From an uncultured Pirellulales bacterium (GTDB lineage Bacteria > Planctomycetota > Phycisphaerae > Sedimentisphaerales > Anaerohalosphaeraceae), in contig CAZAYB010000007.1 of NCBI GenBank assembly GCA_964489215.1, forward strand, positions 1 through 29,403: 29,403 bases of DNA, written 5' to 3'. The notes under the pieces are model-generated. The model did not search any database. It saw only the letters and a program-made list of their open reading frames with translations, and was not told the DNA's origin. The translations under genes were made by a program, and so were the position numbers. The stretch's first letter is position 1. Every line of letters begins with the position of its first letter. This document shows positions 3,300 through 26,697 of the stretch, piece after piece.

Positions 3300-3333
3300 C
3301 AAAAATCCCGGGGTACAAAACTTAATTTACATA

Positions 3334-12890: not shown

Positions 12891-12903
12891 AGAACATCTC
12901 GAA

Positions 12904-12928
12904 AACATTTGCTAAATTTACAAATGTT
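12904..12928. terminator. Possible weak bidirectional terminator hairpin between convergent units
   Basis: 8-bp stem AACATTTG (12904-12911) / CAAATGTT (12921-12928); AT-rich and lacks a good U-tract. Confidence 0.25.
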
Positions 12929-13193
12929 AAGGATGGTCGAAAACGATTTTTTTAGCCTCGACACCTTCAATGGCGTTGAGCTTTTGCATCAAATCTTCGC
13001 TGGCCTTGTCGTCATCGAGCATTTCGAGAACGAGGAGTCCATTTGGTGAACAGAACTCTTTGTCAGCTTCATGAAGGCCAAGCCTTGTTTTAATGCTGCA
13101 TCCAAATTCCGTCAGAGCATGCTGAACCGAATCAACATGTTTGATCCGGTCTGTGATATGAATACCGAGCAGGATGTGTTTATCCAAAGGCAT
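12927..13193 (-). CDS. Small ACT/NikR-C-like protein, probably related to iron-only hydrogenase-associated regulators (TM1266-like)
   Basis: 88 aa with beta-alpha-beta-beta-alpha-beta pattern 'ILLGIHITDR..V..VQ..LTEFGCSIKTRLGLHE..C..NGLLVLE'; last gene of the hyd cluster; AAAGGGG RBS. Family call from memory. Confidence 0.6.
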   Translation of the reverse strand: MPLDKHILLGIHITDRIKHVDSVQHALTEFGCSIKTRLGLHEADKEFCSPNGLLVLEMLDDDKASEDLMQKLNAIEGVEAKKIVFDHP

Positions 13194-13210
13194 GAAATCC
13201 CCTTTCCAAA

Positions 13211-13576
13211 TTAATTGACATGTTTTTTTATTGTTGAAACAAGTTCCATATGGTTAACCGGTTTCTGCATAACACCTGTAAAACCATGTTCCATATGGTC
13301 ATCAGCAGAGCCTATACCGCTTAGAAGAAATACCGGAGTATTATCATCTTCGCTGCGATATTGTTTCATAAACTGTATCCCGGAATCTTCCTCTTCCATC
13401 ATCAGATCGACCATTATAAAGTCCGGCTTACTTTTCCTGCAAAGCTCAAGTCCCTCTTCACAAGAGCCTGCCTCCTTCATTAAAAAACCCGATGCGCTTA
13501 AGATTAGCTCAAGAGCCTCGCGAAAATCCGGGTCATCATCGATTACGATTACTACCTTTTTGCCGTTCTCCATCAC
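13211..13576 (-). CDS. Single-domain response regulator (receiver only)
   Basis: IDDD, phospho-Asp in VDLMM, LSG, QKP; start overlaps the hydF stop (GTGA). Confidence 0.9.
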   Translation of the reverse strand: MMENGKKVVIVIDDDPDFREALELILSASGFLMKEAGSCEEGLELCRKSKPDFIMVDLMMEEEDSGIQFMKQYRSEDDNTPVFLLSGIGSADDHMEHGFTGVMQKPVNHMELVSTIKKHVN

Positions 13577-14820
13577 ATTCTCCTGTTATTTGCAATTCTG
13601 TTTTCCTGGTATACCTGGTGAGCATATCCAAAGGGTTTAAGTGCCCTTTCAAATATCCCAAGTGTATACGCAATTGTCAAGCCATAATTTGTTATAGGTA
13701 CACCCGCCTCTTTTGCAAGCATTATTCTTGAAAGCATTTCACGCCTGTTCCACATGCACGCTCCGCAGTGGATAATAAGTTTATATTTCTGCAAATCCGG
13801 GCTCAAATCATGTCCTCTGCTGTGTTCGAATTCTATCTTCCCGCCTGCATATTGTTTAAGCCATCGCGGTATTTTAACCGTTCCGATGTCGTCTGTTATC
13901 GGATGATGAGTACAGGATTCAGCAATAAGAACCTTGTCACCGCTGGTAAGGTTCTCAATTGCCAAAGCCCCTTTAACCATTTCCGCAAGGTCGGCTTTGT
14001 ATCTTGCAAAAAGAATTGAAAAGCTGGTCATCATAACATCTTCAGGTGTATCAGCTGCAACTTTTAAAAAGGCCTGCGAATCTGTAACAACCAAACCGGG
14101 TTTTTCTTTGAGCAGATTAAATGTTGTGCTAAGTTCACGCTCCTTGCACACCACAGCAACAGAATCAGAATCCAGGATGTCCCGTATCGACTGAACCTGG
14201 GGCAAAATCAATCTGCCCTTCGGTGCCTCCTTGTCTATCGGTACAACCAACACAACCGTCCGGCCCGGCTGTATCAGGTCGCCGAGTATGGAAGGTGTAC
14301 TTGTAAACTCCTTCGGCGTGCTTATGATTATCTGCCTTTTGAGCTCTGCAAATCCTTCTTCTTTTAATGCACTGACGTAACAAAACGGAATGTCTTTGTT
14401 TTTAACCGGTGCAATATTACATTCCTGTTCATCATACAGATCTGTCTTGTTTAGGACCGTAATAACCGGAATACCAAGTTTGTCAAATTCTTCCAGAAGT
14501 TCAGACTCAAAATCACCCCAGTTATTTTTTTCAAAGACCAAAAGCGCCAAGTCGCTCCTTTGAATTACCCCTCTTGTTTTTGCGATCCTTTTCTCCCCCA
14601 ATGCCCCAATGTCATCGATTCCCGCCGTATCCACAAAAAGCACAGGACCAACAGGCAGCAGTTCCATTGGTTTTTCAACAGGGTCGGTCGTCGTGCCGGC
14701 TTGCTCAGAAACTATGGCACTTTGCTGACCTGTTAGTACATTCAAAACAGAACTTTTACCAACGTTTCGTCTGCCGAATATTCCAATATGAAGCCTTAGT
14801 CCCTTAGGTGTTTTTTGCAT
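13573..14820 (-). CDS. hydF: [FeFe]-hydrogenase H-cluster maturation GTPase HydF
   Basis: P-loop GRRNVGKSS, GTTTDPV, DTAG, NKTD; FeS motif CxH..HCGAC; 'TNYG'. Confidence 0.97.
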   Translation of the reverse strand: MQKTPKGLRLHIGIFGRRNVGKSSVLNVLTGQQSAIVSEQAGTTTDPVEKPMELLPVGPVLFVDTAGIDDIGALGEKRIAKTRGVIQRSDLALLVFEKNNWGDFESELLEEFDKLGIPVITVLNKTDLYDEQECNIAPVKNKDIPFCYVSALKEEGFAELKRQIIISTPKEFTSTPSILGDLIQPGRTVVLVVPIDKEAPKGRLILPQVQSIRDILDSDSVAVVCKERELSTTFNLLKEKPGLVVTDSQAFLKVAADTPEDVMMTSFSILFARYKADLAEMVKGALAIENLTSGDKVLIAESCTHHPITDDIGTVKIPRWLKQYAGGKIEFEHSRGHDLSPDLQKYKLIIHCGACMWNRREMLSRIMLAKEAGVPITNYGLTIAYTLGIFERALKPFGYAHQVYQENRIANNRRM

Positions 14821-16237
14821 CTGATTTCCCCCTGTTTACAAAGCCAAGTGAAAGAACCGCCTCACTGCTTGTAAGATGGTCGTATTCCTTTTCGCTGCAC
14901 AACCCCTCTGATGTCAGAATATCCTTTATGGTTCTGTTCTGGTTTGCTGCCTTTTTAGCTGTTTCGGCGCATTTATCATAGCCCAGCTTATTCACAAAAG
15001 CAGTTATAACCGCAGTGGCGTTGTCAACATTTTCTCTGCACCTGTTCTTGTCTGCGCAGATGCCCTCAACAAGACCGCTGCGAAATTTGCTGACTGCATA
15101 TATCAGCTCATCTATCATGCAAAGCAGATTATGAGCGATGCCAGGCAAAAAGGCATTAAGCTCAAGTTGTCCGCTGCACGCTGACAGGGTTATAGCGCTA
15201 TCCCTGCTTATAGCCTGGATAGCTGCCAGACCTGCCATCTCTGCTATCACAGGATTTACCTTGCCCGGCATTATTGACGACCCGGGCTGAACGGCCGGTA
15301 ATCGAATTTCTGCAAACCCTGCCTTTGGTCCGCTCGAAAGCAAACGGATATCGGAAGATATCTTGAAAAGATTAGATGCCAGTGTCTTGAGAAATCCGCT
15401 TACCTCAACTATTTCATCACAGTTTTGAGTTGCGGATATTAAATTTTCCGCCCGGGCCAAAGGAAGATTAGTTATCTGCCGGAGTTTTTCCGATGCGAGA
15501 AATATATATTTTCTGTCTGCGCCTGTCCCCGTACCTACTGCTGTTCCCCCGAGATTTATCACCCTCAATCTTTCCCTGCATTTGGAAAGACGCCACCTGT
15601 CCCTCGAAAACGCTTCTGCATAAGCACCCATCTCCCGCCCAAGGGTGACCAGAACCGCGTCATTGAGCTGAGATCTGCCCAGCTTTACAATGTCCGCAAA
15701 CTCTTTTTCTTTGTGCTGAAACGCATTGACAAGTTCGCTTACAGTCTCCTCAAGTTCGTCGCAGGCAAAGATCGCCGAAACTCTAAGAGCAGTCGGATAA
15801 GTGTCGTTAGTTGACTGATGAAGATTGACATGTCCAAGAGGACTTATTTTTTTATAATCCCCCTTGCTTTCTCCCAGCAGTTCCAGTGCCCGATTGGCGA
15901 TCAGCTCATTGACATACATATTCGTACTTGTACCCGCACCGCCCTGAAGAGCAGCTGGGGCAAATTCACAGGCAAGCTTTCCTGCTGAAAGCTCCCGGCA
16001 AGCCGATACAATAGCCCCGCTTAAATCTTTTGGTATGTAACCAAGTTCACTGTTGGCCTGGCAGCAAGCCTGTTTTACCAGGCCAAACCCCTGCAAAAGT
16101 CTTTGATGAACACGCCCTCCGACAGAACCGAAATTTTCATAAGCACGAAAGCCGCTTATTCCGCACAGAGAGTCTGACCTGATCGACATTTCTCCTAAAG
16201 AATCAACTTCAGTTCTTTCCGGACTTTCGCCGTGCAT
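14804..16237 (-). CDS. aspA: Aspartate ammonia-lyase (fumarase/aspartase superfamily)
   Basis: 'DSLGEM', 'QGGAGTSTNM', 'QSTND.YPT', 'GRSQL.DA', signature 'GSSIMPGKVNP'. ATG 16237 preferred (GGTG 6 nt upstream); GTG 16246 is the alternative. Confidence 0.88.
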   Translation of the reverse strand: MHGESPERTEVDSLGEMSIRSDSLCGISGFRAYENFGSVGGRVHQRLLQGFGLVKQACCQANSELGYIPKDLSGAIVSACRELSAGKLACEFAPAALQGGAGTSTNMYVNELIANRALELLGESKGDYKKISPLGHVNLHQSTNDTYPTALRVSAIFACDELEETVSELVNAFQHKEKEFADIVKLGRSQLNDAVLVTLGREMGAYAEAFSRDRWRLSKCRERLRVINLGGTAVGTGTGADRKYIFLASEKLRQITNLPLARAENLISATQNCDEIVEVSGFLKTLASNLFKISSDIRLLSSGPKAGFAEIRLPAVQPGSSIMPGKVNPVIAEMAGLAAIQAISRDSAITLSACSGQLELNAFLPGIAHNLLCMIDELIYAVSKFRSGLVEGICADKNRCRENVDNATAVITAFVNKLGYDKCAETAKKAANQNRTIKDILTSEGLCSEKEYDHLTSSEAVLSLGFVNRGKSDAKNT

Positions 16238-16331
16238 TAAAATCACCTGTTATTTTAATTTTACATTAACTGTACCCACTGCTTAAGCGCAGAATTATAC
16301 GCAATGGTAAACATGATAAACTATGCATAGC

Positions 16332-16712
16332 TTATATATACTTCTCTATCGCTTTTAACAGAACATTCGGGGTGACCGGCTTTTCGATGAACTCTTTTAC
16401 CGGCAGATTTTCATCATCAGGCTCGAAAGCAAAAGGCAAATTCATCTCCTTACGGATACCGCTTAACATAATAATTGGAATATTGCTTAACTTGCCGTCA
16501 GCTTTTATCCGCTTGGCTGCATCAAAGCCTTCCGTATTAGTCGTCATCATCACATCGAGCAGTATGATGTCAGGCTTATGTTCATGAGCCATTAAAATAC
16601 CTTTCTCTCCGTCAGATGCATTAACTACTTCATAGCCTTTTGCGTCAAGAAGATTGCTGATTGCCTCAACAAACTCCGCATCATCATCGATCATCAAAAC
16701 TTTTTTCGACAC
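16332..16712 (-). CDS. Single-domain response regulator (receiver only)
   Basis: IDDD, phospho-Asp in LDVMM, LSG, EKP; GTG start with GAGG RBS. Confidence 0.92.
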   Translation of the reverse strand: MSKKVLMIDDDAEFVEAISNLLDAKGYEVVNASDGEKGILMAHEHKPDIILLDVMMTTNTEGFDAAKRIKADGKLSNIPIIMLSGIRKEMNLPFAFEPDDENLPVKEFIEKPVTPNVLLKAIEKYI

Positions 16713-16741
16713 TTTCTAATCCTCACTAATTAATTATAAAT

Positions 16742-17806
16742 TTAACATTTTAGCGTATCTTTACATTTAAGCGAATCACCCCTGGAATAATCAACATACC
16801 TGCCTATCGTTCCAGCTGTTTCCTCCAGATTCTGTATCACTTTTTCAGCCTGAACATAACCGAATTTGCCCGGATACAGTTCATAGTTTTGCCTGTATTT
16901 ATCAGGTGTAAAATTGGGCATTATTACATTTGCCCCCGCTTTGAGTGCTTTTTGAGTGGCCTGTTTAGTTCCCAGAACATCAACTGCTGTAGTAGCGGGT
17001 AAATGACAGTTGCCGGTAACTATTCTTGTAACTGCCAGCATCTTTAACGCAAGCCCGATATTGCCGTCCGCAGACTTTGCCATTGCCGTAGCCTCATGCC
17101 GAATAAACACCCCTATGCCTATCATGTCGAACTGCTTGTGATGATAAAACATAGCATCATCTGCAAGCGGTTTTGTGTCATCACCTGCCAGCCCGACAAG
17201 ACTGCCGCAGCCAACCTGATAATTCAGTTCAGATAAAAATCCCAGGCATTCCATTCTTTTTTCATAACTCATGCCCGGATGAAGTTTCCCATAAAGATTC
17301 CTGTCAGTCGTTTCAATTTTGAGCAGATACCGATCAGCCCCTGCCTGTTTCCAGCATTTATAATCTTCCCAGCTTCTTTCACCGACACTTAAAGTAACCG
17401 CCATATCATACTTGCTTTTAATATCATTGATTACCTCTGCCGGAAATTCCGTCGGCATTTCCTTATCTTCACCGCCCTGCAAAACAATCGTCCTTAGTCC
17501 CGCGCTGTATATACGGTCCGCCGCTTCAAGTATCTCCGTTTTGCTCATCCTGTACCGCTTGAGTGATTTATTGTATCTCGATATCCCGCAGTAAGCACAA
17601 CTGTTATTGCAGATGTTCGTAAATTCAACCAGGCCCCGCAGCAGAATCCCGTCTCCGCAATTTGTGCGTCGAATTTTGTCCGCATATTCAAACAAAATAT
17701 CTCGCTCTGAGCCTTCTGTGTCCAGCAGATACCTGACATCATCATAGCCGGGCACTGATGAAGCTTCAAATTGCTCAAAAATAAGTTCTGCTCTGCTTAG
17801 GGCCAT
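16742..17806 (-). CDS. hydE: [FeFe]-hydrogenase maturation radical SAM protein HydE
   Basis: 'RGLVEFTNICNNSCAYCG' CxxxCxxC, 'LQGGED', 'GADRYLLKIET', 'GANVIMPN', 'YELYPGK'. Confidence 0.93.
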   Translation of the reverse strand: MALSRAELIFEQFEASSVPGYDDVRYLLDTEGSERDILFEYADKIRRTNCGDGILLRGLVEFTNICNNSCAYCGISRYNKSLKRYRMSKTEILEAADRIYSAGLRTIVLQGGEDKEMPTEFPAEVINDIKSKYDMAVTLSVGERSWEDYKCWKQAGADRYLLKIETTDRNLYGKLHPGMSYEKRMECLGFLSELNYQVGCGSLVGLAGDDTKPLADDAMFYHHKQFDMIGIGVFIRHEATAMAKSADGNIGLALKMLAVTRIVTGNCHLPATTAVDVLGTKQATQKALKAGANVIMPNFTPDKYRQNYELYPGKFGYVQAEKVIQNLEETAGTIGRYVDYSRGDSLKCKDTLKC

Positions 17807-18307
17807 TTACTTTCCTGCCAGTTCCTGTTTACGAATATCCCTGATAATTTTCACAATTTTTTCCGGGGTAAGATCACCGTAAATTTTCTCGTCTATCATT
17901 ACAACAGGCGCAAGTCCGCACGCACCGAGACATCGTGCCCCTTCAAGACCAAACATTCCGTCTTCTGTTACCTCGCCTACATCTATCTTAAGCTCATCCT
18001 TAAGAGCGTCCATAACCGCCCCTGCCCCTTTAACATAGCAGGCAGTACCCAAACAAACGCTTATCACATGCCTGCCGGGCTTTTCAAGATTGAAATAATG
18101 ATAGAATGTAGCAACTCCCCAGATATGAGCGGTAGGTATATTCATCTGCTCGGAAATAAGGTCCATTACATCACGGGAAAGAAAACCGAAAAGCTGCTGG
18201 GTCTTGTGCAAAACCGCTATCAGATAAGACTCGGTATGCTTTTTATCCTTGACTTGCTCGATATAATTTTTCAATTCTTCAATTTTACTTTGTTCTGTAG
18301 CCTGCAT
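17807..18307 (-). CDS. hydC: NuoE-like [2Fe-2S] subunit of the multimeric [FeFe]-hydrogenase (HydC/HndA)
   Basis: 'LIAVLH..Q...G.L', 'GVATFY..F', 'CLGTACYVKG', 'RCLGACGLAP'. Confidence 0.93.
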   Translation of the reverse strand: MQATEQSKIEELKNYIEQVKDKKHTESYLIAVLHKTQQLFGFLSRDVMDLISEQMNIPTAHIWGVATFYHYFNLEKPGRHVISVCLGTACYVKGAGAVMDALKDELKIDVGEVTEDGMFGLEGARCLGACGLAPVVMIDEKIYGDLTPEKIVKIIRDIRKQELAGK

Positions 18308-18373
18308 TATGTTTCCTTGTCAACTTACAAATTAGAATTTATTGTTTTTCTGAAACTTTTCTGATAAACTCCT

Positions 18374-19885: not shown

Positions 19886-19901
19886 AATATACACTCACAA
19901 T

Positions 19902-21680
19902 TTAAACTGTGGTTTTATCAACCTTGGATATTATACCAGCAGGGGCCTTAGCCTTGTAATGCGTATGCAGAAGTTTATGACTTTTCTCGCTCAACGGCCT
20001 GCCAAGATATTCCTTGTAAAGACGCTGGATGTCAGGGTTCTCATGACTTCTGCGAATCGTCTTGCCCCTGTCGCTGCTGTAAAGAGCCTCTGCTCTTTTA
20101 CGCAGGCTGTCCTCATCAAGCGGAATGGTGTTAGCGGTAGCATAAGGCTGACCTCCGCCGCCTATACATCCGCCGGGACAACCCATTATCTCAACAAAAT
20201 GGTACCTTTCGGGGTCTTCACGCACTATGGTGAGCAGTTTATGGGCGTTACCAAGGCCATGGGCAACCGCCACCCGAATCTCCTGGCCGTCCATAACAAG
20301 ACTGCCCTCTTTTATTCCCTTAAGTCCGCGTATATTTTCAACCTCGATATCTATCAGGGTTTCTCCTGTGTAGAGTTCATAAGCGGTCCTTATAGCCGCT
20401 TCCATTACACCACCGGTAACCCCGAATATCGTTCCCGCTCCGGAGCTCATTCCAAGCGGTGTGTCAGGTTTCTCTGGTTCTATATTGACAAAGTCTATTC
20501 CCGCAGATTTAATCATCCATGCTATCTCACGGGTAGTAACAACAATATCTGTTGCAGCTGTGCCGTTTATCTGAAGCTCCGGCCTGGCTGCCTCGTACTT
20601 CTTTGCGGTACAGCACATGACCGCCGAGCTGATTATCTTTTCAGGATCAACGTTGATCTTTTCCGCAAAGTAAGTCTTAATCAAAGAGCTCGCCATAGAC
20701 ATCGGACTCTTACATGTAGAAATGTTAGGTATAAGGTCAGGATAAAACTGTTCCATGCACTTCATCCAGGCACTGGAACAGGATGTTATCATCGGAAGCG
20801 GTCCTTTGTTCTGGATTCTTTCAAGAAACTCGCTGCCTTCTTCCATTATCGTAAGATCAGCCGCGAACTGAGTATCGAACACATAATCGAAACCAAGTTT
20901 TCTAAGCGATGCGAAAAGCTCACCTTCAAGATTCTTACCCGCCTCGAGATTAAAAGCTTCCCCGATAGCTGCCCTTACAGAAGGCGCAATCTGGGCTACC
21001 GTGATATAATCCTTATCGTTAAGCCTTTCAAAAAGCTCCTGGGTATAACTTTTCTCTACAAAACTCGCCGTCGGACATACATTAATGCACTGACCGCAGG
21101 TAGTGCATACGCTTTCTGAAAACGGCATATTATAAGCGGGCATTACAACTGTCTTAAAGCCTCTGTGTGCCTGGCCAAGAGCAGTTACCTTCTGGACCTC
21201 AGAACACATACGAACGCATCGCCCGCAAAGAATACATTTATCAGGATTACGAACTACAGAAGGAGAAGAAAGATCCTCCTCGTAACTCTTACGCTCACCT
21301 TCAAAATGTCGCTTGCGAATACCCATCGCGTAAGCAAGCCTTTGAAGCTCACAGTTGCCGTCACGCTCACAAGTATGACAGTCCTGTGGATGGTTATCAA
21401 GCAAAAGCTCTACAATATCACGTCTTGCTCTGCGGATTCCAGCGGTATTGGTATGAATCTTCATACCGTCACTGACTGGAAACGCACAACTGGCGACATA
21501 ATTTTTTGAACCTTCAACTTCTACTATGCAAACCCTGCAGGCACCTTCTATGGAAAGCTTGGGATGATAGCAAAGCCGGGGTATATGAAAACCAAGTTTA
21601 TCAGCGGCCTGCATGATTGTCTGGCCGGAATCTACTTTATATTCCTTATTATTGATATGTATCGAAATCTGTTCACTCAT
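19902..21680 (-). CDS. hydA: [FeFe]-hydrogenase catalytic subunit HydA/HndD (group A3-type domain architecture), variant H-cluster motifs
   Basis: [2Fe-2S] 'LCYH..GACRVC..SC', His-ligated 'HPQDCHTC..C', two [4Fe-4S] 'CILCGRC..C' and 'CTTCGQCINVCP', H-domain P1 TSCSSAW, P2 MCCTAKKYE, P3 EIMGCPGGCIGGGGQP, fused small-subunit tail 'SHENP'. Confidence 0.96.
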   Translation of the reverse strand: MSEQISIHINNKEYKVDSGQTIMQAADKLGFHIPRLCYHPKLSIEGACRVCIVEVEGSKNYVASCAFPVSDGMKIHTNTAGIRRARRDIVELLLDNHPQDCHTCERDGNCELQRLAYAMGIRKRHFEGERKSYEEDLSSPSVVRNPDKCILCGRCVRMCSEVQKVTALGQAHRGFKTVVMPAYNMPFSESVCTTCGQCINVCPTASFVEKSYTQELFERLNDKDYITVAQIAPSVRAAIGEAFNLEAGKNLEGELFASLRKLGFDYVFDTQFAADLTIMEEGSEFLERIQNKGPLPMITSCSSAWMKCMEQFYPDLIPNISTCKSPMSMASSLIKTYFAEKINVDPEKIISSAVMCCTAKKYEAARPELQINGTAATDIVVTTREIAWMIKSAGIDFVNIEPEKPDTPLGMSSGAGTIFGVTGGVMEAAIRTAYELYTGETLIDIEVENIRGLKGIKEGSLVMDGQEIRVAVAHGLGNAHKLLTIVREDPERYHFVEIMGCPGGCIGGGGQPYATANTIPLDEDSLRKRAEALYSSDRGKTIRRSHENPDIQRLYKEYLGRPLSEKSHKLLHTHYKAKAPAGIISKVDKTTV

Positions 21681-21690
21681 TTCTCTTTCC

Positions 21691-23481
21691 TTACGATTTA
21701 GTTATGGCATCGAACTTACATGTGTTATAACACATTCCGCACTTAATACATTTATCCTGATCTATCACGTGCATTTCCTTACGCTGACCGCTTATGGCAT
21801 CAACCGGACATACACGCTTACAAGCTCCGCAACCGACACACTTATCTATAATAAGATAAGTAGCAAGCTGCTTACACACACCTGCCCTGCACTTCTTATC
21901 ACGAATATGTTCCTCATATTCCTGGCGGAAGTTCTTGATAGTGCTTAAAACAGGATTGGGAGCACTTTGACCAAGCCCGCAAAGAGAAGACTTGATGATC
22001 ATTTCTCCAAGCCTTTCAAGCTTTTCAATGTCACCTTCCTTGCCTTTACCCTCTGTCAGTCTGGTAAGTATCTCAAGCATACGTTTGGTACCCTCCCGGC
22101 ATGGAGTGCACTTTCCGCAGGATTCATTCTGGGTAAACTCAAGGAAAAACTTGGCAATATCAACCATACATGAATCCTCGTCTATGACTATCATACCGCC
22201 GGAACCCATTATTGAACCTGCCTGTGCTAAATTTTCATAATCGATAGGCGTATCGATATATTCCTCAGGCAGACAGCCTCCGGAAGGTCCGCCCGTCTGG
22301 ATAGCCTTTAATTTCTTGCCTTCCAGCAGACCGCCGCCTATATCATATACTATTTCTCGAAGGGTAGTGCCCATGGGAACCTCGATAAGACCGGTGTTAA
22401 CCACCTTGCCTGCCAGTGCGAAAACCTTAGTGCCCTTGCTCTTGGCGGTTCCGACAGTACTGAACCATTTGCCGCCGTCCAGAATAACCACAGGGATATT
22501 GGACCATGTCTCGACATTGTTTATCAAAGTAGGCTTGCCGAACAAACCCTTCACCGAAGGATAAGGAGGCCTGGGCCTTGGCATACCCCTTGCCCCCTCT
22601 ATCGAATGAATCAAAGCCGTTTCTTCTCCGCATACAAAAGCACCTGCACCAAGACGAATCTCGAGATCGAAATTAAAATCACTGCCGAGAATATTTTCTC
22701 CAAGGAAACCGTTGTCGCGGGCATCTTTAATCGCCTTTTCTATTCGGCGAATGGCAAGCGGATATTCCGCACGAATATAAACTATACCTTTGCTTGCACC
22801 GATAGCATATCCGCCTATTATCATCCCTTCCACTATCGTATGAGGATCACCCTCAATAGCACTTCTGTCCATAAAAGCACCCGGGTCACCTTCGTCTGCG
22901 TTGCATATTACATATTTTTCTTCGGATTCTTCCGCAGCGGTAAACTGCCATTTAAGACCGGTCGGAAAACCTGCTCCCCCTCGGCCCCTCAGACCAGATT
23001 CCTTTACCATATTGACTACATCATCACTGCTCATATCCGTCAAAACCTTTGCAAGGGCCTCATAACCCCTGACAGAAAGATAATCGTCTATGCTCTCAGG
23101 GTCGATTATCCCGCAGTTACGTAAAGCTATCCGCATCTGCTTCTTAAAGAAATCACTGTCACCGAAAATCCTGAAGAACCTGTTAAACAGATGATCCTCC
23201 TGGACTATCAGCCGTGATACTTCCCTGCCGTTGACAAGATGTTCAGAAACGATTTCCTTCATATCATCCACACCGACATTGCCGTATATCGTATAACCGG
23301 GATTGACCACGACTACTGGCCCCTTGTCACACATACCAAGACAGCCGCTGAGACTGATCTTTACCTTGTCGTCAAGCGAATGTTCCTTAACCTGCTCGTC
23401 AAGAACTTTCCTCAGGTCATGGGTACCTTTTTGTATACAGCCGGTACCATCACACATTGTTACTATCAATTCATCCGACAC
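21691..23481 (-). CDS. hydB: NuoF-like FMN/NADH-binding subunit HydB/HndC
   Basis: N-terminal [2Fe-2S] 'CDGTGC..GCLGMC', 'GLRGRGGAGFPTG', 'NADEGDPGAFMDR', 'GAGAFVCGEETAL', 'GGPSGGC', 'ESCGKCTPCREG', C-terminal 2x[4Fe-4S]; GTG start. Confidence 0.96.
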   Translation of the reverse strand: MSDELIVTMCDGTGCIQKGTHDLRKVLDEQVKEHSLDDKVKISLSGCLGMCDKGPVVVVNPGYTIYGNVGVDDMKEIVSEHLVNGREVSRLIVQEDHLFNRFFRIFGDSDFFKKQMRIALRNCGIIDPESIDDYLSVRGYEALAKVLTDMSSDDVVNMVKESGLRGRGGAGFPTGLKWQFTAAEESEEKYVICNADEGDPGAFMDRSAIEGDPHTIVEGMIIGGYAIGASKGIVYIRAEYPLAIRRIEKAIKDARDNGFLGENILGSDFNFDLEIRLGAGAFVCGEETALIHSIEGARGMPRPRPPYPSVKGLFGKPTLINNVETWSNIPVVILDGGKWFSTVGTAKSKGTKVFALAGKVVNTGLIEVPMGTTLREIVYDIGGGLLEGKKLKAIQTGGPSGGCLPEEYIDTPIDYENLAQAGSIMGSGGMIVIDEDSCMVDIAKFFLEFTQNESCGKCTPCREGTKRMLEILTRLTEGKGKEGDIEKLERLGEMIIKSSLCGLGQSAPNPVLSTIKNFRQEYEEHIRDKKCRAGVCKQLATYLIIDKCVGCGACKRVCPVDAISGQRKEMHVIDQDKCIKCGMCYNTCKFDAITKS

Positions 23482-23532
23482 TTTCTGTTTCCCTTCTGTA
23501 AAAACTGAGTAAAATTCAACTCCGCTGATTTT

Positions 23533-23889
23533 TTATATCACCCATTCTTTTATTACTTCACCTTTTTTAATGTGCCTTTCAATTATTTCCTGGGCACGCT
23601 CAACCGTAACCTTGCCGTACCTGACAGGATTTTTGCCCGTCTCGACAACTTCCACAGTAGGCTCAAGATTACATCTGCCCGCACAGCCTTTCTGACTTAA
23701 ATAAACATCCGTCAGGCCGCCTGTACCTACCGCGTTCTTGAAAACTTCCATTATCTCCTTAGACCCAGCCGCAATTTCGCAGGTGGCCATTCCAACAAAA
23801 ACCCTCTTCGTCGAAAGATAACCCTTGCCTATAATCCTGCTAACTGCCTCGGCTCGTTTCTTCTTGACTATTTCAAGCGGTGTCAGCAT
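23533..23889 (-). CDS. hydD: Thioredoxin-like [2Fe-2S] ferredoxin subunit HydD/HndB
   Basis: 'VFVGMATCEIAAG', 'GCAGRCNLEPTVEV', 'Y..V....A.EI...H'. Confidence 0.88.
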   Translation of the reverse strand: MLTPLEIVKKKRAEAVSRIIGKGYLSTKRVFVGMATCEIAAGSKEIMEVFKNAVGTGGLTDVYLSQKGCAGRCNLEPTVEVVETGKNPVRYGKVTVERAQEIIERHIKKGEVIKEWVI

Positions 23890-25723
23890 TTTTAATACCC
23901 CTTTCTATCTGAAATAAAAATGAATTACCTTTTTCCCTCGGACATGCCCATATCTCTCCGCCATGAGCCTGAACGAGATTCTTCGTTATATAAAGCCCAA
24001 GCCCGTTGCCTTTGACTTTCTTTGTGTCGCTTGTCTTTAATCTTGAAAATTTCTTGAAAAGCTTCTTGCTTTGCTCAGGGTCAATGGGAACACCGTCATT
24101 ATAAACCTCTATTTCTATCTTCCCGTCTAAAAATCGGCCGTTTATAATAACCCTGCCGTGTTCATTACCATATTTTATCGCATTGCTGATAAGATTGTTC
24201 GCAACTATCTGCATAAGATCAGAATCAGCAACCGCTTCCATATCATCCTCAAGATTGTTCTCGATTGTAATATCCTTCTTTACAGCAAGTGTCTCCAAAG
24301 AGCTGACGGTAATATCAAAAACATCCTTTTTAAGAGATATCTCACTTTTATGTACCTTAAGCTGACCCCTTTCAATTCTGCCCAGGTTCAAAAACTTCTT
24401 AACCGTTGCCGCAAGATAATCAAGGTTCCTTGCCACAGAATCGATAGCTTTTCGCTGCTTGAAGTTCACCATACCCAAAAAACCGTCGCGGACAGCATAA
24501 GCGTTCATAATCGCAGAGCCCAGTATGCCGTTAAGCTCATGGGCAACAAAACTTATCAGTTCAACATAACTTTGATTTGAGGTCTCAAGCTGCTCATTAG
24601 ATATCTTAAGGCTTTGCTCACGTTCCTTTATCCGCTCTGCCATGTGATTAAAAGAACTGGCAAGCCGTTTAAGTTCGTTTATCTTAAAATCATCACGGAC
24701 CTTGTGCTCAAGATCACCCTGTGAATACTTCCTGGTGCCGTTGAGCATCTCTATAATTGGCCTGGTAATCGTACCGGTAAGGACCATCGAAAGTACCGCT
24801 GCCAAAACTGTGGCACCTGCAACTAAAACCGAAAATATTAAAAAAATATTCCTGGCCATATCGTTAAAAGGCTTTTCCAGAATACCCACATAAAGGATCC
24901 CGATAACCTCTCCGTGTATGTCGCGTATGGGTTCATAAGCCGTTTTGTACCAGTCGTTTACCACAAAGGCTCTGTCCAGCCACATCTGGCCCTGCTCGGC
25001 GACTTTTTCATAAACTTCCGCTGAAATTCTCGTCCCCACTGCCCGTTTGTTCTTGTCGGTAAGGACATTTGTAGCTATTCTCACATCATCCTGAAATATC
25101 GTCACCGTACCGTAAGGCTTGCCGTAATACATTTCATTGCCAAAAACCAGCGTACGGATCCTGTCGACCAGAGAATGGTCCTTATTGATTATCCTGCCGC
25201 CGTATAACACCCTTACAACTTTACCGTTCTTAACTTCCGGTATAGCGTACTCCTTGCTCATAGCACTTCTGAGAACCGCTTTATTAGTGGGAATTGCCCT
25301 GGGCGTATATTTAATTTCTATCTGAACCCTTGAGCTGAGATCATTATTCATCGACTCAAGTTCCTGTGCTTCAATTATCCTCGTCCCGCCCACCGCTTCT
25401 TTGCTGACAACCGCCTTTTGGACAATATCACTTTTGCTGCTTTGGGCCTTATCGGGACCTATTACATATAAATAATCAAGCTGGGTTTTTTCCCGAAGAA
25501 CATCAATATCACCAGCGCCGGGCAATATTCTCATTATCTGACCAATTCGGTCTATCTCAGTCCGATATACTGTTCGCGCAGCCTTAAGATTGCGAGCGAC
25601 AGTCTCCTCAGCCCGTTCAATAATATCTTTTTTAATGATATAATACCCAAGGCCCGCGATTGACAGACTCATCACAAGGATTACCACTAAAAAATAAAGC
25701 GTTATTCGTTGTCTTATAGACAT
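23873..25723 (-). CDS. Membrane sensor histidine kinase (TM - Cache - TM - HAMP - HisKA - HATPase_c)
   Basis: Two TMs; Cache-type 'TIFQDDVRIATNV..RAVGT..YEPIRD..G.VIGILYVG'; HAMP 'ITRPI..NELKRLASSFNHM'; H-box AHELNGIL; N-box NLISNAIKY; G2 GNGLGL. Confidence 0.92.
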   Translation of the reverse strand: MSIRQRITLYFLVVILVMSLSIAGLGYYIIKKDIIERAEETVARNLKAARTVYRTEIDRIGQIMRILPGAGDIDVLREKTQLDYLYVIGPDKAQSSKSDIVQKAVVSKEAVGGTRIIEAQELESMNNDLSSRVQIEIKYTPRAIPTNKAVLRSAMSKEYAIPEVKNGKVVRVLYGGRIINKDHSLVDRIRTLVFGNEMYYGKPYGTVTIFQDDVRIATNVLTDKNKRAVGTRISAEVYEKVAEQGQMWLDRAFVVNDWYKTAYEPIRDIHGEVIGILYVGILEKPFNDMARNIFLIFSVLVAGATVLAAVLSMVLTGTITRPIIEMLNGTRKYSQGDLEHKVRDDFKINELKRLASSFNHMAERIKEREQSLKISNEQLETSNQSYVELISFVAHELNGILGSAIMNAYAVRDGFLGMVNFKQRKAIDSVARNLDYLAATVKKFLNLGRIERGQLKVHKSEISLKKDVFDITVSSLETLAVKKDITIENNLEDDMEAVADSDLMQIVANNLISNAIKYGNEHGRVIINGRFLDGKIEIEVYNDGVPIDPEQSKKLFKKFSRLKTSDTKKVKGNGLGLYITKNLVQAHGGEIWACPREKGNSFLFQIERGIKNADTA

Positions 25724-26353
25724 TTAGCTTTCCCTGGCCTTTTCAGTTGCATTCACAAAATATATCAGATTTTCAAGCTCTGCCTCGACGTTGATATTGT
25801 TTACTACAACATCCCAATCATTTCTAAGCCGAATCGGAGCAAAATTCATAAATCCTTTAACTCCGGAATTAACCATTATTTCAAAAACCTGCTGGGCTGC
25901 GTAATCCGGAACACTTATTATGCCCAGTGAAATTCCATTTTCCTTTATAAACTCACCAAGTTTTTCAAGTCCGTAAACTGGAATAGGCACTTCTTTGCTG
26001 AATTTACCAGGGTCAATGTCAAAACCTGCAACTATTCGCATACCGCTTTTCTCAAAACCATGATAATTCATCAAAGCCTTGCCTATATTTCCTACCCCAA
26101 CCAGCACAAAATCCTTAACCTCATCTTTGCCGAGAACTTTGTTGAGCTGTTCTATCAGTTCATCAATCTTGTAACCCCCGCGTCGATTGCCTGTTATTCC
26201 AAAAAGAGAAAAGTCTTTTCTAACCTGTGAAGCGGTAACCCCCGCTGCATCTGCAAGGTTATCGGAAAAAACACGAACAAAGTTAAGGCTTTTTAGCCGA
26301 TTTACTGCATTTTTGTACTTTGAAAGCCGATTTATCACACTTTTGTTAGGCAT
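25724..26353 (-). CDS. rex: Redox-sensing (NADH/NAD+) transcriptional repressor Rex
   Basis: 'RLSKY', 'S..LA...GVTASQVRKDFS..G..G..GGY' wHTH; Rossmann GVGNIG..L.NY; 'AGFD'; 'NFAP'. Confidence 0.95.
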   Translation of the reverse strand: MPNKSVINRLSKYKNAVNRLKSLNFVRVFSDNLADAAGVTASQVRKDFSLFGITGNRRGGYKIDELIEQLNKVLGKDEVKDFVLVGVGNIGKALMNYHGFEKSGMRIVAGFDIDPGKFSKEVPIPVYGLEKLGEFIKENGISLGIISVPDYAAQQVFEIMVNSGVKGFMNFAPIRLRNDWDVVVNNINVEAELENLIYFVNATEKARES

Positions 26354-26446
26354 ATTTTACACCAAAAAAAACATTTATTGTTACAAATTAGCATTTATTT
26401 CAGGTTTTTGTCACAAATAATCTGCAGTTGTTGTGATCTTTACCTT

Positions 26447-26475
26447 AATATACTAAGATGCAATGAGCTTGTCAA
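26447..26475 (-). promoter_or_regulatory. sigma70 promoter of the rex-hyd operon
   Basis: Minus strand TTGACA (26475-26470), 17-nt spacer, TATATT (26452-26447). Confidence 0.7.
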
Positions 26476-26482
26476 GGTTTAT

Positions 26483-26500
26483 TTGTGAATTTTTTCACAT
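26483..26500. promoter_or_regulatory. Rex operator
   Basis: TTGTGAA-TTTT-TTCACAT, 13/14 match to the known Rex consensus TTGTGAA-N4-TTCACAA, located upstream of rex. Confidence 0.8.
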
Positions 26501-26522
26501 ATTTTTAATGATTTAATTGTAG

Positions 26523-26528
26523 TATAAT
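26523..26528 (+). promoter_or_regulatory. Candidate -10 element for the divergent sensor kinase gene
   Basis: Perfect TATAAT; no good -35 at 16-18 nt spacing (that region abuts the Rex box). Confidence 0.35.
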
Positions 26529-26697
26529 AGGTAAAGTTATTCCTTGAATTTCCAGGCTGTTTTAGTCGACCCATAAACGCTTGGTTTATCATGCTTTGAC
26601 CCACTGTTTTTGCCCATAAAAATGACTTTTTTGCATAAGCTCTATAATAAAACATCCGATTTACAATTGTTAGGCGATACAGCATTAAGAGGATGCA

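What the first reader, a model, noticed from the sequence alone, without database searches (positions are those of the whole stretch)
12927..26353. Self-contained 13-gene hydrogen module: redox repressor, kinase, tetrameric [FeFe]-hydrogenase, all maturases, ammonia-lyase and accessory regulators in one apparent operon
Seen: rex-HK-hydD-hydB-hydA-hydG-hydC-hydE-REC-aspA-hydF-REC-ACT, all on the minus strand, with spacings 0, -17, 51, 10, 16, 66, 0, 29, 94, -17, -4, 17 nt, one clear promoter upstream of rex, and no internal terminator that I could see. Established: each part is known separately (HydABC(D)/Hnd enzymes, HydEFG maturation, Rex control of hydrogenases in Firmicutes and Thermotogae). 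Inference: three control layers (NADH/NAD+ via Rex, an external ligand via the Cache kinase, a small-molecule or metal sensor via the ACT protein) are wired into one transcript with enzyme and assembly line. I do not recognise this architecture as described, especially for a putative Planctomycetota host. Best candidate for an undescribed system in this window.
Basis: partly seen in the sequence, partly recalled or inferred. Interest (0 to 1): 0.75.

Follow-up and report, generated by a model that had tools for sequence, protein, structure and literature searches.

The report
Rex-gated hydrogenase operon with formate-type sensor kinase
A 13-gene cluster in a likely anaerobic Phycisphaerae bacterium puts an NADH-linked hydrogen-producing enzyme, its assembly proteins and a redox repressor together with a membrane sensor kinase that looks built to detect formate; the parts are known, but this wiring has not been described.

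Summary
All 13 minus-strand genes are present at the stated coordinates and spacings. One strong promoter sits next to a near-perfect Rex operator, and there is no credible internal terminator.

The enzyme is an Acetobacterium woodii/Thermoanaerobacter kivui-type NADH/ferredoxin [FeFe] hydrogenase (HydA, HydB, HydC plus a small HydD). HydE, HydG and HydF are bona fide.

Much of the claimed novelty falls away:
- AspA next to HydF is a published, tested ammonia donor for H-cluster synthesis.
- Rex control of hyd genes, hydG and rex itself is known in Firmicutes.
- The "ACT" protein is a TM1266-fold CPF_0552-family protein. Its orthologues sit in unrelated contexts in two relatives checked.

The conserved unit is a 9-10-gene core, rex-HK-hydD-hydB-hydA-hydG-hydC-hydE-REC1(-hydF). 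It occurs in at least 19 Phycisphaerae species, with the Rex box placed identically.

What is new is the kinase. Its sensor belongs to the recently defined formate-binding Cache family and keeps all polar ligand-binding residues. This kinase subfamily travels with rex and hydrogenase genes in several phyla.

Verdict: a new variant of a known kind, of moderate interest.

The parts
26483..26500 (-). Rex operator (ATGTGAAAAAATTCACAA), 7 nt upstream of the -35 hexamer
   Evidence: It has one mismatch to TTGTGAAnnnnTTCACAA. An equivalent box lies about -124 to -149 from the rex start, followed 5-7 nt later by TTGAC, in most related loci. Fourteen of the 18 hits with at most 2 mismatches in 1.24 Mb of loci lie upstream of rex.
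26447..26475 (-). Sigma-70-type promoter TTGACA-17-TATATT. It gives a 5' leader of roughly 85-90 nt before rex.
   Evidence: It is the best promoter-like site in the scanned region 12400-27000, at 11 of 12. The sequence was read.
25724..26353 (-). rex, the NADH/NAD+-sensing repressor
   Evidence: NF003996 scores 230 bits against a cutoff of 138. Pfam finds Put_DNA-bind_N and CoA_binding. The Rossmann motif GVGNIG is visible.
23873..25723 (-). Membrane sensor histidine kinase. It has an extracytoplasmic two-module Cache sensor of the formate-binding family, then HAMP, HisKA and HATPase.
   Evidence: Pfam sCache_3_3 scores 115 bits, with Cache_3-Cache_2, HAMP and HATPase_c. The only PDB sequence hits are the formate-bound domains 8PY1 and 8PY0. 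R215, T218, T231 and Y263 are invariant in 38 homologues. The AF2 model has pLDDT 94 and matches 8PY0 at 2.1-2.3 A. The H, N, G1 and G2 boxes are present.
23533..23889 (-). hydD-like small thioredoxin-fold subunit with three invariant Cys. It overlaps the kinase gene by 17 nt.
   Evidence: The 2Fe-2S_thioredx match is weak. The best PDB matches are N-terminal domains of NfnB/HydB-type subunits. It is 73-84% identical in relatives, and C37, C69 and C73 are invariant.
21691..23481 (-). hydB, the NADH/FMN subunit (NuoF-like), with an N-terminal 2Fe-2S domain and two C-terminal 4Fe-4S clusters
   Evidence: Pfam finds Complex1_51K, NADH_4Fe-4S, Fer4 and 2Fe-2S_thioredx. The best solved relative is A. 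woodii HydB 7q4v_B, 853 bits over the full length.
19902..21680 (-). hydA, the catalytic [FeFe] hydrogenase subunit. Its H-cluster motifs are variant: TSCSSAW, MCCTAKK, MGCPGGC.
   Evidence: NF040763 scores 843 bits against 765. The best solved relatives are T. kivui HydA1 8a6t (597 bits) and A. woodii HydA1 7q4v (551 bits).
18374..19894 (-). hydG, a radical-SAM maturase (likely ATG start at 19885)
   Evidence: TIGR03955 scores 447 bits against 312. Alternative starts were listed.
17807..18307 (-). hydC, a NuoE/HoxE-like 2Fe-2S subunit
   Evidence: 2Fe-2S_thioredx scores 167.6 bits. The cysteine pattern is CX4C...CX3C.
16742..17806 (-). hydE, a radical-SAM maturase
   Evidence: TIGR03956 scores 319 bits against 255.
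16332..16712 (-). REC1, a single-domain CheY-like response regulator and the likely partner of the Cache kinase
   Evidence: Response_reg scores 69.8 bits. The D9-D11, D53, S84 and K111 positions are canonical. It co-occurs with the kinase in 19 complete and many partial loci, and is absent where the kinase is absent (L012). It directly follows the kinase in L110, L113 and L089.
14804..16246 (-). aspA, aspartate ammonia-lyase (likely ATG start at 16237)
   Evidence: NF008909 scores 560 bits against 510. The GSSIMPGKVNP loop is present. The aspA-hydF linkage recurs in many phyla and is published (PMC11736057).
13573..14820 (-). hydF, the GTPase scaffold maturase. It overlaps aspA by 17 nt.
   Evidence: TIGR03918 scores 562 bits against 326. 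Pfam finds HydF_dimer and HydF_tetramer.
13211..13576 (-). REC2, a second single-domain response regulator, specific to this lineage
   Evidence: Response_reg scores 68.9 bits. The acceptor residues are canonical. No specific orthologue turned up in 80 related loci.
12927..13193 (-). CPF_0552-family small protein (TM1266-like ferredoxin fold) with an invariant His/Cys set. Its membership of the module is doubtful.
   Evidence: NF052672 scores 98.8 bits against 85. TIGR03959 scores only 20.4 against 60.8. The AF2 model's best fold match is TM1266 2NZC. H6, H12, C32, H41, C48 and H87 are invariant. Orthologues sit in unrelated contexts.
12904..12928 (-). AT-rich hairpin followed by a U-run, between convergent genes. 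It is a probable weak terminator.
   Evidence: The RNA fold gives -9.9 kcal/mol and z = -3.6, and 0 of 200 shuffles fold as well.

Best explanation
This is a Rex-gated, probably autoregulated hydrogen-disposal operon of an anaerobic, fermentative Phycisphaerae (Sedimentisphaerales-like) bacterium.

**Proposed mechanism**
1. When NADH/NAD+ is low, Rex sits on the operator next to the -35 and blocks the single promoter. When NADH rises, Rex leaves and the operon is transcribed.
2. The operon encodes HydA, HydB and HydC plus a small HydD. Together they form an A. woodii/T. kivui-type flavin-based electron-confurcating [FeFe] hydrogenase, which burns NADH and reduced ferredoxin to H2.
3. [quoted passage not shown] In this genome it adds AspA, which supplies ammonia locally for the dithiomethylamine bridge built on HydF.
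4. Embedded in the same unit is a two-component pair. The kinase has an extracytoplasmic Cache sensor of the formate-binding family. REC1 is a CheY-like receiver with no output domain.
5. I infer that the kinase reports external formate, the alternative interspecies electron carrier. REC1~P would then adjust hydrogenase expression or activity through protein-protein contact. Its partner and the sign of the effect are unknown.

REC2 and the CPF_0552-family protein are lineage-specific additions at the 3' end.

**Shown:** gene identities, the operator and promoter, conservation of the core, and conservation of the sensor residues.
**Inferred:** a single transcript, confurcating activity, formate as ligand, and the REC1 output.
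For: - **Gene identities.** Curated HMMs score above their cutoffs.
- **Solved relatives.** HydB is closest to A. woodii HydB (853 bits). HydA is closest to T. kivui and A. woodii bifurcating HydA1.
- **Catalytic residues.** The proton-pathway residues C299, E279, E282, R286 and S319, plus K358, M353 and M497 (CpI numbering), were read as conserved from the alignment.
- **Rex box and promoter.** They are present in the window and at the same position in most related loci.
- **Rex precedent.** Rex regulates FeFe hyd genes, hydG and itself in C. bescii (PMC6391272).
- **Core order.** It is conserved in at least 19 genomes and in further metagenome contigs.
- **AspA.** The link to HydF and the ammonia-donor role were shown in vitro (PMC11736057), and the aspA-hydF adjacency is seen across phyla.
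- **Kinase sensor.** It gives a full-length sCache_3_3 match. Its only PDB sequence hits are formate-bound sCache domains. The equivalents of PacF R142/T145/T158 and R3 Y167 are invariant in 38 homologues. The model superposes on 8PY0 at 2.1-2.3 A.
- **Kinase neighbourhoods.**
  - Kinase homologues above 40% identity have rex immediately upstream in 20 of 35 loci. A hyd gene lies directly downstream in 25 of 34 loci. For more distant homologues the counts are 0 of 33 and 1 of 31.
  - Other phyla place this kinase beside NiFe hydrogenases with rex, or beside a molybdopterin FDH-like gene with NuoE and NuoF.
- **Kinase-REC1 pairing.** The two appear and disappear together and are directly adjacent in some loci.
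Against: - There are no transcript data. Gaps of 66 nt (hydG-hydC) and 85-94 nt (REC1-aspA, containing a TATAAT) could hold internal promoters.
- The aspA-to-CPF tail is not conserved in relatives, so it may be a separate unit.
- The pocket-floor Phe of the crystallised formate sensors (F182/F175) is an invariant Tyr here. The sensor also carries an extra N-terminal module, so the ligand could differ.
- The published formate-sensor family was found almost only in chemoreceptors.
- Neither REC has an output domain and no DNA-binding regulator lies in the cluster, so the signalling output is unknown.
- HydA lacks the canonical second Cys of TSCCP. A. woodii HydA1, an active enzyme, lacks it too. 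HydA also has MCC in place of MPC, with unknown effect.
- Confurcation is inferred from homology only.
Confidence: 0.62

Rival explanations
1. The cluster is several transcription units that happen to be co-directional. One is a conserved rex-to-REC1 (or rex-to-hydF) unit. The other is a separately promoted aspA-hydF-REC2-CPF maturation and accessory unit, possibly with another start before hydC. In that case the regulators are not all co-expressed with the enzyme.
For: - The largest gaps are 66 nt and 85-94 nt. The second contains TATAAT.
- No related locus has the same tail.
- CPF orthologues lie elsewhere in two relatives.
- REC2 has no orthologue in the related loci.
Against: - There is no terminator-like structure in the gaps.
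- The scan flagged no promoter there at 9 of 12 or better.
- The aspA/hydF and hydF/REC2 overlaps point to translational coupling.
- In L025 the REC1-aspA gap is only about 20 nt.
Confidence: 0.3
2. The Cache kinase senses something other than formate: another small anion or metabolite tied to redox or H2 metabolism, such as bicarbonate/CO2, acetate or a C4-dicarboxylate. The resemblance to formate sensors would then reflect shared ancestry only.
For: - The pocket-floor residue is an invariant Tyr rather than the Phe said to set pocket size.
- An extra N-terminal module is present.
- Identity to the crystallised domains is only 22-24%.
- The published family is almost exclusively chemoreceptors.
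Against: - All polar formate-contacting residues (Arg, two Thr, Tyr) are invariant across 38 homologues of 34-56% identity.
- One homologue sits beside an FDH-like molybdopterin enzyme.
Confidence: 0.3
3. The kinase and REC genes are passengers: an unrelated two-component system that inserted into a hydrogenase operon. They would have no functional tie to H2 metabolism.
For: There is no output domain and no known mechanism. More distant homologues of the kinase are mostly not near hyd genes.
Against: - The linkage holds across at least 19 species at 50-57% kinase identity.
- It holds in rearranged orders (L101, L105, L110, L113, L118).
- It holds with a different hydrogenase type (L006, L025, L054).
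- It holds in other phyla beside NiFe hydrogenases and rex.
- The kinase and hydD overlap by 17 nt.
Confidence: 0.08

Closest known systems
Electron-bifurcating/confurcating [FeFe] hydrogenases HydABC(D): A. woodii HydABCD, T. kivui HydABC, T. maritima HydABC, and the Caldanaerobacter tengcongensis tetrameric NADH-dependent enzyme (the last from my own knowledge)
   Same: - HydA has the same domain layout, with best PDB hits 8a6t and 7q4v.
- HydB matches A. woodii HydB over its full length.
- HydC is NuoE-like.
- A small fourth subunit gene is present.
- The TSCS form of motif L1 is shared with A. woodii HydA1.
   Different: - hydG sits between hydA and hydC.
- A full-length membrane kinase precedes hydD. 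The Aminicenantes locus L084 has only a small HATPase-only gene at the corresponding place. From memory, Thermoanaerobacter clusters are similar.
- HydA carries the co-varying set TSCSSAW / MCC / MGC.
- HydD has three Cys.
Rex regulons of Firmicutes and Thermotogae (C. bescii shown experimentally, PMC6391272; comparative work by Ravcheev et al. 2012 cited from memory)
   Same: The operator has the same consensus. Rex controls FeFe hydrogenase structural genes, hydG and rex itself.
   Different: Here rex is the first gene of the hydrogenase operon itself, in Planctomycetota. It is consistently followed by a Cache kinase. The operator position relative to the -35 is fixed across the clade.
hydEFG maturation clusters with aspA and TM1266 (Pagnier et al. 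2024, PMC11736057; TIGR03959)
   Same: All three maturases are present. aspA lies immediately upstream of hydF. A TM1266-fold small protein is nearby.
   Different: In other phyla a true TM1266 (TIGR03959, 84-97 bits) sits directly upstream of aspA-hydF-hydG. Here the small protein is a CPF_0552-family paralogue at the far 3' end, and its orthologues are elsewhere in two relatives checked.
Formate-binding Cache sensors (PacF, Atu0526; PDB 8PY0 and 8PY1; Monteagudo-Cascales et al., bioRxiv 10.1101/2024.05.17.594639)
   Same: The Pfam signature is the same: full sCache_3_3 plus partial Cache_3-Cache_2. The Arg, the two Thr and the Tyr are conserved. The module fold is similar.
   Different: - The output is a histidine kinase, not a chemoreceptor.
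- The pocket-floor Phe is Tyr.
- An additional N-terminal module is present.
- The genomic context is rex plus a hydrogenase.
Formate control of hydrogenase expression in E. coli (FhlA and the formate regulon; from my own knowledge)
   Same: The logic is the same: formate level governs synthesis of an H2-evolving enzyme.
   Different: FhlA is a cytoplasmic sigma-54 activator that binds intracellular formate and controls a NiFe formate hydrogenlyase. Here the sensor is extracytoplasmic, the pathway is two-component, and the enzyme is an NADH/ferredoxin FeFe hydrogenase.
H2-sensing regulatory hydrogenase systems (group C HydS/Hfs with kinase or phosphatase partners; HoxBC-HoxJ-HoxA)
   Same: Signal-transduction genes are embedded in hydrogenase loci.
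   Different: There is no sensory hydrogenase and no PAS-hydrogenase fusion in the cluster. The only hydrogenase keeps the full proton pathway.

Membership tests
Bifurcating/confurcating [FeFe] hydrogenase HydABC(D) (HydDB group A3; NCBIfam 'group A6') | HydA with an H-cluster domain plus N-terminal 2Fe-2S and 4Fe-4S domains and a small-subunit-like C-terminus | tested here: met
   Pfam finds Fer2_4, NADH-G_4Fe-4S_3, Fer4, Fe_hyd_lg_C and Fe_hyd_SSU. NF040763 scores 843 bits against 765.
Bifurcating/confurcating [FeFe] hydrogenase HydABC(D) (HydDB group A3; NCBIfam 'group A6') | Canonical H-cluster motifs L1 TSCCPxW, L2 MPCxxKxxE, L3 ExMACxxGC | tested here: inconclusive
   L1 is TSCSSAW, L2 is MCCTAKKYE and L3 is EIMGCPGGC. 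The TSCS form also occurs in the active A. woodii HydA1. The MCC and MGC forms co-vary with it in about 27 genomes. The proton-pathway residues are conserved.
Bifurcating/confurcating [FeFe] hydrogenase HydABC(D) (HydDB group A3; NCBIfam 'group A6') | Adjacent NuoF-like HydB (FMN/NADH site, extra Fe-S domains) and NuoE-like HydC | tested here: met
   HydB matches 7q4v_B with 853 bits over the full length.
Bifurcating/confurcating [FeFe] hydrogenase HydABC(D) (HydDB group A3; NCBIfam 'group A6') | Coupled NADH plus ferredoxin-dependent H2 turnover | not testable with these tools
   This needs purified enzyme.
Rex-repressed operon | A Rex protein with a winged-helix N-terminus and an NAD(H) Rossmann domain | tested here: met
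   NF003996 scores 230 bits against 138. Pfam finds Put_DNA-bind_N and CoA_binding.
Rex-repressed operon | An operator TTGTGAAnnnnTTCACAA at the promoter | tested here: met
   The match at 26483-26500 has one mismatch and lies 7 nt from the -35. The box and its position are conserved in relatives.
Rex-repressed operon | NADH-sensitive DNA binding and derepression | not testable with these tools
   This needs EMSA and expression data.
HydE/HydF/HydG maturation system with AspA | All three maturases score above the equivalog cutoffs | tested here: met
   TIGR03955 scores 447 against 312, TIGR03956 scores 319 against 255, and TIGR03918 scores 562 against 326.
HydE/HydF/HydG maturation system with AspA | aspA adjacent to hydF | tested here: met
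   aspA overlaps hydF by 17 nt. NF008909 is above its cutoff. The linkage is described in PMC11736057.
Formate-binding Cache sensor family (PacF/Atu0526/8PY0/8PY1) | Full-length sCache_3_3 match, or a Cache_3-Cache_2 match | tested here: met
   sCache_3_3 scores 115 bits over profile positions 3-106 of 107. Cache_3-Cache_2 scores 90.7 bits as a partial match.
Formate-binding Cache sensor family (PacF/Atu0526/8PY0/8PY1) | Conserved Arg (PacF R142), Thr (T145), Thr (T158) and Tyr (R3 Y167) | tested here: met
   R215, T218, T231 and Y263 are invariant in 38 homologues.
Formate-binding Cache sensor family (PacF/Atu0526/8PY0/8PY1) | A Phe at the pocket floor that limits ligand size (R3 F182 / R6 F175) | tested here: not met
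   The residue is Tyr278, invariant in this kinase subfamily.
Formate-binding Cache sensor family (PacF/Atu0526/8PY0/8PY1) | Measured formate binding | not testable with these tools
   This needs ITC or thermal shift on the purified sensor.
TM1266 family putative iron-only hydrogenase regulator (TIGR03959) | Score above the equivalog cutoff | tested here: not met
   It scores 20.4 bits against 60.8. It belongs instead to NF052672, the CPF_0552 family (98.8 against 85).
TM1266 family putative iron-only hydrogenase regulator (TIGR03959) | TM1266 fold | tested here: met
   The AF2 model has pLDDT 80. Its best PDB match is 2NZC, with probability 1.0 and TM-score 0.63.
TM1266 family putative iron-only hydrogenase regulator (TIGR03959) | Conserved neighbourhood with hydE, hydF and hydG | tested here: not met
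   Orthologues of 70-77% identity in A. lusitana and another relative lie among unrelated genes.
Classical two-component system | A kinase with H, N and G boxes, and a receiver with the acidic pocket, Asp acceptor, Ser/Thr and Lys | tested here: met
   The kinase has AHELNG, NAIKY, NDGVPI and GNGLGL. REC1 has D9-11, D53, S84 and K111. REC2 has D13-15, D57, S86 and K105.
Classical two-component system | A response regulator with a DNA-binding or enzymatic output domain | tested here: not met
   Both receivers are single-domain proteins of 126 and 121 aa. Some relatives have an OmpR-type regulator after REC1.

The most novel reading that the evidence does not exclude
rex, the formate-type Cache kinase and the CheY-like REC1 form an undescribed regulatory module found in several phyla (Planctomycetota, Omnitrophota, Spirochaetota, Aminicenantes-like). 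It would merge two signals to set hydrogenase output: intracellular NADH/NAD+ through Rex, and extracellular formate through the kinase. REC1~P would act directly on Rex or on the hydrogenase or its maturation machinery, rather than on DNA.
Probability: 0.25. Interest if true: 0.65.

Novelty: new variant of a known kind. Interest (0 to 1): 0.5.

Why it matters
Fermentative Phycisphaerae are common in anoxic sediments and digesters. How much H2 or formate they release shapes syntrophy and methane formation.

If the kinase really senses formate, this locus gives a concrete, testable route by which a fermenter reads the external state of one electron carrier (formate). It could combine that signal with its internal NADH/NAD+ level to decide how much hydrogenase to make or use.

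It would also extend the newly defined formate-binding Cache family from chemotaxis into transcriptional or metabolic control. And it would extend Rex-hydrogenase coupling beyond Firmicutes and Thermotogae.

Separately, the co-varying substitutions next to three [4Fe-4S]H ligands in HydA are a natural experiment on H-cluster tuning in a bifurcating enzyme.

Tried and rejected
- **Source contig.** An exact-sequence look-up of the window's HydF found no record. The source contig and sample therefore remain unknown.
- **Flanking genes.** The SBP-PAS kinase, DUF2064, GT2, VTT and LptF/G genes have no counterparts in any related locus fetched at that point (L001-L089). They were dropped as parts of the system.
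- **Internal Rex boxes.** Only 3-mismatch hits lie inside hydA and hydB, at chance level. Rejected.
- **Internal terminators.** All candidates are intragenic and weak, and fewer than in shuffles. Rejected.
- **Structured RNA or riboswitch.** Rfam at gathering thresholds found nothing in the window. The REC1-aspA gap folds no better than shuffles.
- **CPF protein against PDB by sequence.** No hit even at E = 10. A model and fold search were needed.
- **Context of P0103.** This distant Cache-only homologue gave an uninformative neighbourhood.
- **Sensory (group C) hydrogenase.** Considered for HydA and rejected, because the proton-pathway residues are intact and the best relatives are catalytic bifurcating enzymes.
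- **DcuS/CitA-like C4-dicarboxylate sensing.** Considered because of aspA and fumarate. It is not favoured. sCache_3_2 scores only 38.7 bits against 115 for sCache_3_3, and the kinase is conserved in relatives that lack aspA in the cluster.
- **Prior description of the architecture.** Literature searches found none.

Full report

Yes. Thirteen minus-strand ORFs occupy 12927-26353. Pfam and NCBIfam assign them as follows.

| Gene | Assignment | Score vs cutoff (bits) |
|---|---|---|
| rex | Rex, NF003996 | 230 / 138 |
| HK | Cache-HAMP-HisKA-HATPase kinase | - |
| hydD | small thioredoxin-like 2Fe-2S protein | weak, below cutoff |
| hydB | NuoF-like, extra Fe-S domains | - |
| hydA | NF040763 | 843 / 765 |
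| hydG | TIGR03955 | 447 / 312 |
| hydC | NuoE/HoxE-like | - |
| hydE | TIGR03956 | 319 / 255 |
| REC1 | single receiver domain | - |
| aspA | NF008909 | 560 / 510 |
| hydF | TIGR03918 | 562 / 326 |
| REC2 | single receiver domain | - |
| last gene | 88 aa, CPF_0552 family, NF052672 | 98.8 / 85 |

- The last protein touches TM1266 only weakly (TIGR03959, 20 bits against 61).
- The best promoter-like site in the scanned region (12400-27000) is TTGACA-17-TATATT at 26475-26447.
- Terminator-like hits inside the cluster are all intragenic and weak. There are fewer than in shuffled sequence (9 against 12.4).
- After the last gene an AT-rich hairpin folds at -9.9 kcal/mol, z = -3.6.
- Rfam finds nothing in the window.

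**2.

ATGTGAAAAAATTCACAA lies at 26483-26500. It has one mismatch to the Rex consensus and sits 7 nt upstream of the -35.

In the related loci the same layout recurs: a Rex box, 5-7 nt, then TTGAC, about 125-150 nt before rex. Of the 18 matches with at most 2 mismatches in 1.24 Mb of fetched loci, 14 are at this position. This is good comparative evidence for a Rex-controlled, autoregulated promoter.

Rex repression of FeFe hydrogenase genes, hydG and rex itself has been shown by EMSA in Caldicellulosiruptor bescii (PMC6391272).

**3. What kind of hydrogenase?**

- HydB matches A. woodii HydB over its full length (7q4v_B, 853 bits).
- HydA's best solved relatives are the bifurcating HydA1 of T. 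kivui (8a6t, 597 bits) and A. woodii (7q4v, 551 bits).
- Read from the CpI alignment, the proton pathway (C299, E279, E282, R286, S319) is intact. So are K358, M353 and M497. This is therefore a catalytic enzyme, not a sensory one.
- HydD resembles the N-terminal thioredoxin-like domain of HydB/NfnB-type subunits. It has three invariant cysteines.

A four-subunit NADH/ferredoxin-confurcating enzyme is a reasonable inference. It is not shown.

**4. How conserved is the architecture?**

A HydG-seeded scan of one genome per species returned Phycisphaerae, Sedimentisphaerales and other Planctomycetota MAGs as the closest relatives, at about 65% identity. This supports the host guess.

Mapping all 13 proteins onto the 80 loci gave the following.
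- The order rex-HK-hydD-hydB-hydA-hydG-hydC-hydE-REC1 is complete in 19 genomes. It is consistent in many contig-truncated ones.
- The tail varies. hydF directly follows REC1 in about nine loci.
- In others an OmpR-type regulator and a second kinase follow REC1.
- aspA between REC1 and hydF appears only in L025.
- REC2 has no orthologue in these loci.

No locus among 160 reproduces the window's 13-gene order. The conserved unit is therefore a 9-10-gene core, and the 3' third is lineage-specific.

**5. The tail genes**

*AspA.* The aspA-hydF(-hydG) adjacency occurs in Lentisphaerae, Verrucomicrobiota, Fibrobacteria, Spirochaetes, Desulfosarcina and others. Pagnier et al. (PMC11736057) reported this association bioinformatically. 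They also showed that AspA plus aspartate supplies the bridgehead nitrogen of the dithiomethylamine ligand in vitro. This part is known.

*The small protein.* In those other phyla a true TM1266-family gene (TIGR03959, 84-97 bits) sits just upstream of aspA. The window's small protein is a paralogous family.
- Its AF2 model (pLDDT 80) matches TM1266 (2NZC) best.
- It has an invariant His/Cys set: H6, H12, C32, H41, C48, H87.
- It is 60-78% identical across Phycisphaerae.
- In Anaerohalosphaera lusitana and another relative the orthologue lies among unrelated genes.

Its role as a hydrogenase "control layer" rests only on position in this one genome.

**6. The kinase is the interesting part**

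Its periplasmic region gives a full-length sCache_3_3 match (115 bits) and a partial Cache_3-Cache_2 match. That is exactly the signature Monteagudo-Cascales et al. use for their formate-binding Cache family.

- Against all PDB sequences it hits only their two formate-bound structures, 8PY1 and 8PY0.
- From that alignment and the paper's residue list, the key Arg (PacF R142), the two Thr (T145, T158) and the Tyr (R3 Y167) correspond to R215, T218, T231 and Y263.
- All four are invariant in 38 homologues of 34-56% identity.
- The Phe at the pocket floor is an invariant Tyr (Y278).
- An AF2 model (pLDDT 94) shows two Cache modules. The C-terminal module superposes on 8PY0 at 2.1-2.3 A.
- The paper states that its family is almost exclusively in chemoreceptors. 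A kinase version beside hydrogenase genes is therefore not covered there.

**7. The kinase travels with rex, hydrogenases and REC1**

Look-ups of homologues gave these neighbourhoods.

| Source | Neighbourhood |
|---|---|
| Omnitrophica | NiFe hydrogenase and hyp genes, then rex, then the kinase |
| Aminicenantes | an FeFe HydABC-type cluster and a NiFe hydrogenase, then the kinase |
| "Deltaproteobacteria" bin | molybdopterin FDH-like, NuoE, NuoF, then the kinase |
| Spirochaetes | rex, then the kinase |
| another contig (P0088, GCA_001302865.1) | the kinase, then a single REC |

A metagenome scan with the sensor alignment split the homologues by identity to the kinase.

| Kinase identity | rex immediately upstream | hyd gene directly downstream | REC directly downstream |
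|---|---|---|---|
| above 40% | 20 of 35 | 25 of 34 | 6 of 34 |
| 40% or below | 0 of 33 | 1 of 31 | 9 of 31 |

The hydrogenase-linked kinases therefore form a distinct subfamily within a wider kinase-plus-single-REC family.

- REC1 is present where the kinase is present. It is absent in L012, which lacks the kinase.
- It directly follows the kinase in L110 and L113.
- Both receivers have canonical phospho-acceptor residues and no output domain.

**8. Most likely mechanism**

*Shown:* gene identities, the operator and promoter, and conservation.

*Inferred:* high NADH releases Rex and the operon is transcribed. That yields the confurcating hydrogenase, its maturases and, here, AspA as the local ammonia source. 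The kinase reads external formate and phosphorylates REC1, which acts by protein contact on an unknown partner.

Because the kinase and REC1 lie behind the Rex-gated promoter, their own levels would also be NADH-gated. The sign of the formate effect and the REC1 target are unknown.

Rivals are several transcription units, a different ligand, and a passenger two-component system.

**9. Novelty**

Each component and several pairings are known: Rex with hyd, AspA with HydF, TM1266 with the maturases. I found no description of the Phycisphaerae core architecture or of the rex/Cache-kinase/REC1 association with hydrogenases.

I rate it a new variant of a known kind. Interest is about 0.5, carried by the formate-type sensor link rather than by the 13-gene count.

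Noticed in passing
window 19902-21680 (-), HydA residues about 297-303, 353-359 and 495-503 in CpI numbering: The H-cluster motifs are TSCSSAW, MCCTAKKYE and EIMGCPGGC. In the fetched loci TSCSSAW always comes with MCC and MGC (about 27 Phycisphaerae genomes). TSCCP and TSCSP always come with MPC and MAC. All the changed positions flank [4Fe-4S]H cysteine ligands. The canonical second Cys of L1 is Ser, as in A. woodii HydA1, while a new Cys appears beside the L2 ligand.
   Followed up: partly
window 12927-13193 (-): The CPF_0552-family protein has an invariant His/Cys set (H6, H12, C32, H41, C48, H87; H19 nearly invariant) on a TM1266-like fold. This suggests a metal site. It is 60-78% identical across Phycisphaerae yet sits in unrelated neighbourhoods in two relatives.
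   Followed up: partly
L006, L025, L054 (also L119, L128, L131): The same rex-kinase scaffold precedes a different hydrogenase set: hydC, an unusually long hydB (about 3 kb) and a HydA only 46-48% identical with canonical TSCCP/MPC motifs. L054 carries both hydrogenase types side by side.
   Followed up: no
window 23533-23889 (-): HydD keeps only three invariant cysteines (C37, C69, C73). The N-terminal domain of NfnB (9n5u_B) shows the same pattern, unlike the four-Cys thioredoxin-like ferredoxins. Its cofactor status is unclear.
   Followed up: partly
L026 13741-16226 (similar in L007, L013, L016, L027, L029, L034): In a subset of relatives REC1 is followed by an OmpR-type DNA-binding response regulator and a HAMP-PAS histidine kinase. 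This could be the missing transcriptional output in those genomes.
   Followed up: partly
window 26698-29199 (+): A second sensor kinase (periplasmic SBP_bac_3 solute-binding domain, two PAS, HisKA, HATPase) is transcribed divergently from the rex promoter region. It is not conserved next to hyd clusters in relatives.
   Followed up: partly
window 1077-3900 (-): A separate two-component pair lies about 9 kb from the cluster: an HTH_17-REC response regulator (3334-3900) followed by an HDOD-domain histidine kinase (1077-3302).
   Followed up: no
window 16247-16331: The 85-94 nt gap between REC1 and aspA contains a TATAAT (...ccattgcgTATAATtctgcg...) but no good -35 and no significant RNA structure. 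It could be a weak internal promoter for the aspA-hydF-REC2-CPF tail.
   Followed up: partly
L084 (Aminicenantes contig WJMT01000021.1): A single locus combines a group-C-like FeFe hydrogenase, PHP, a small HATPase-only protein, hydC, hydD, hydB and hydA, an MvhD/NiFe group-3-like hydrogenase, and then the formate-type Cache kinase. It is a dense hydrogenase-plus-signalling island.
   Followed up: no
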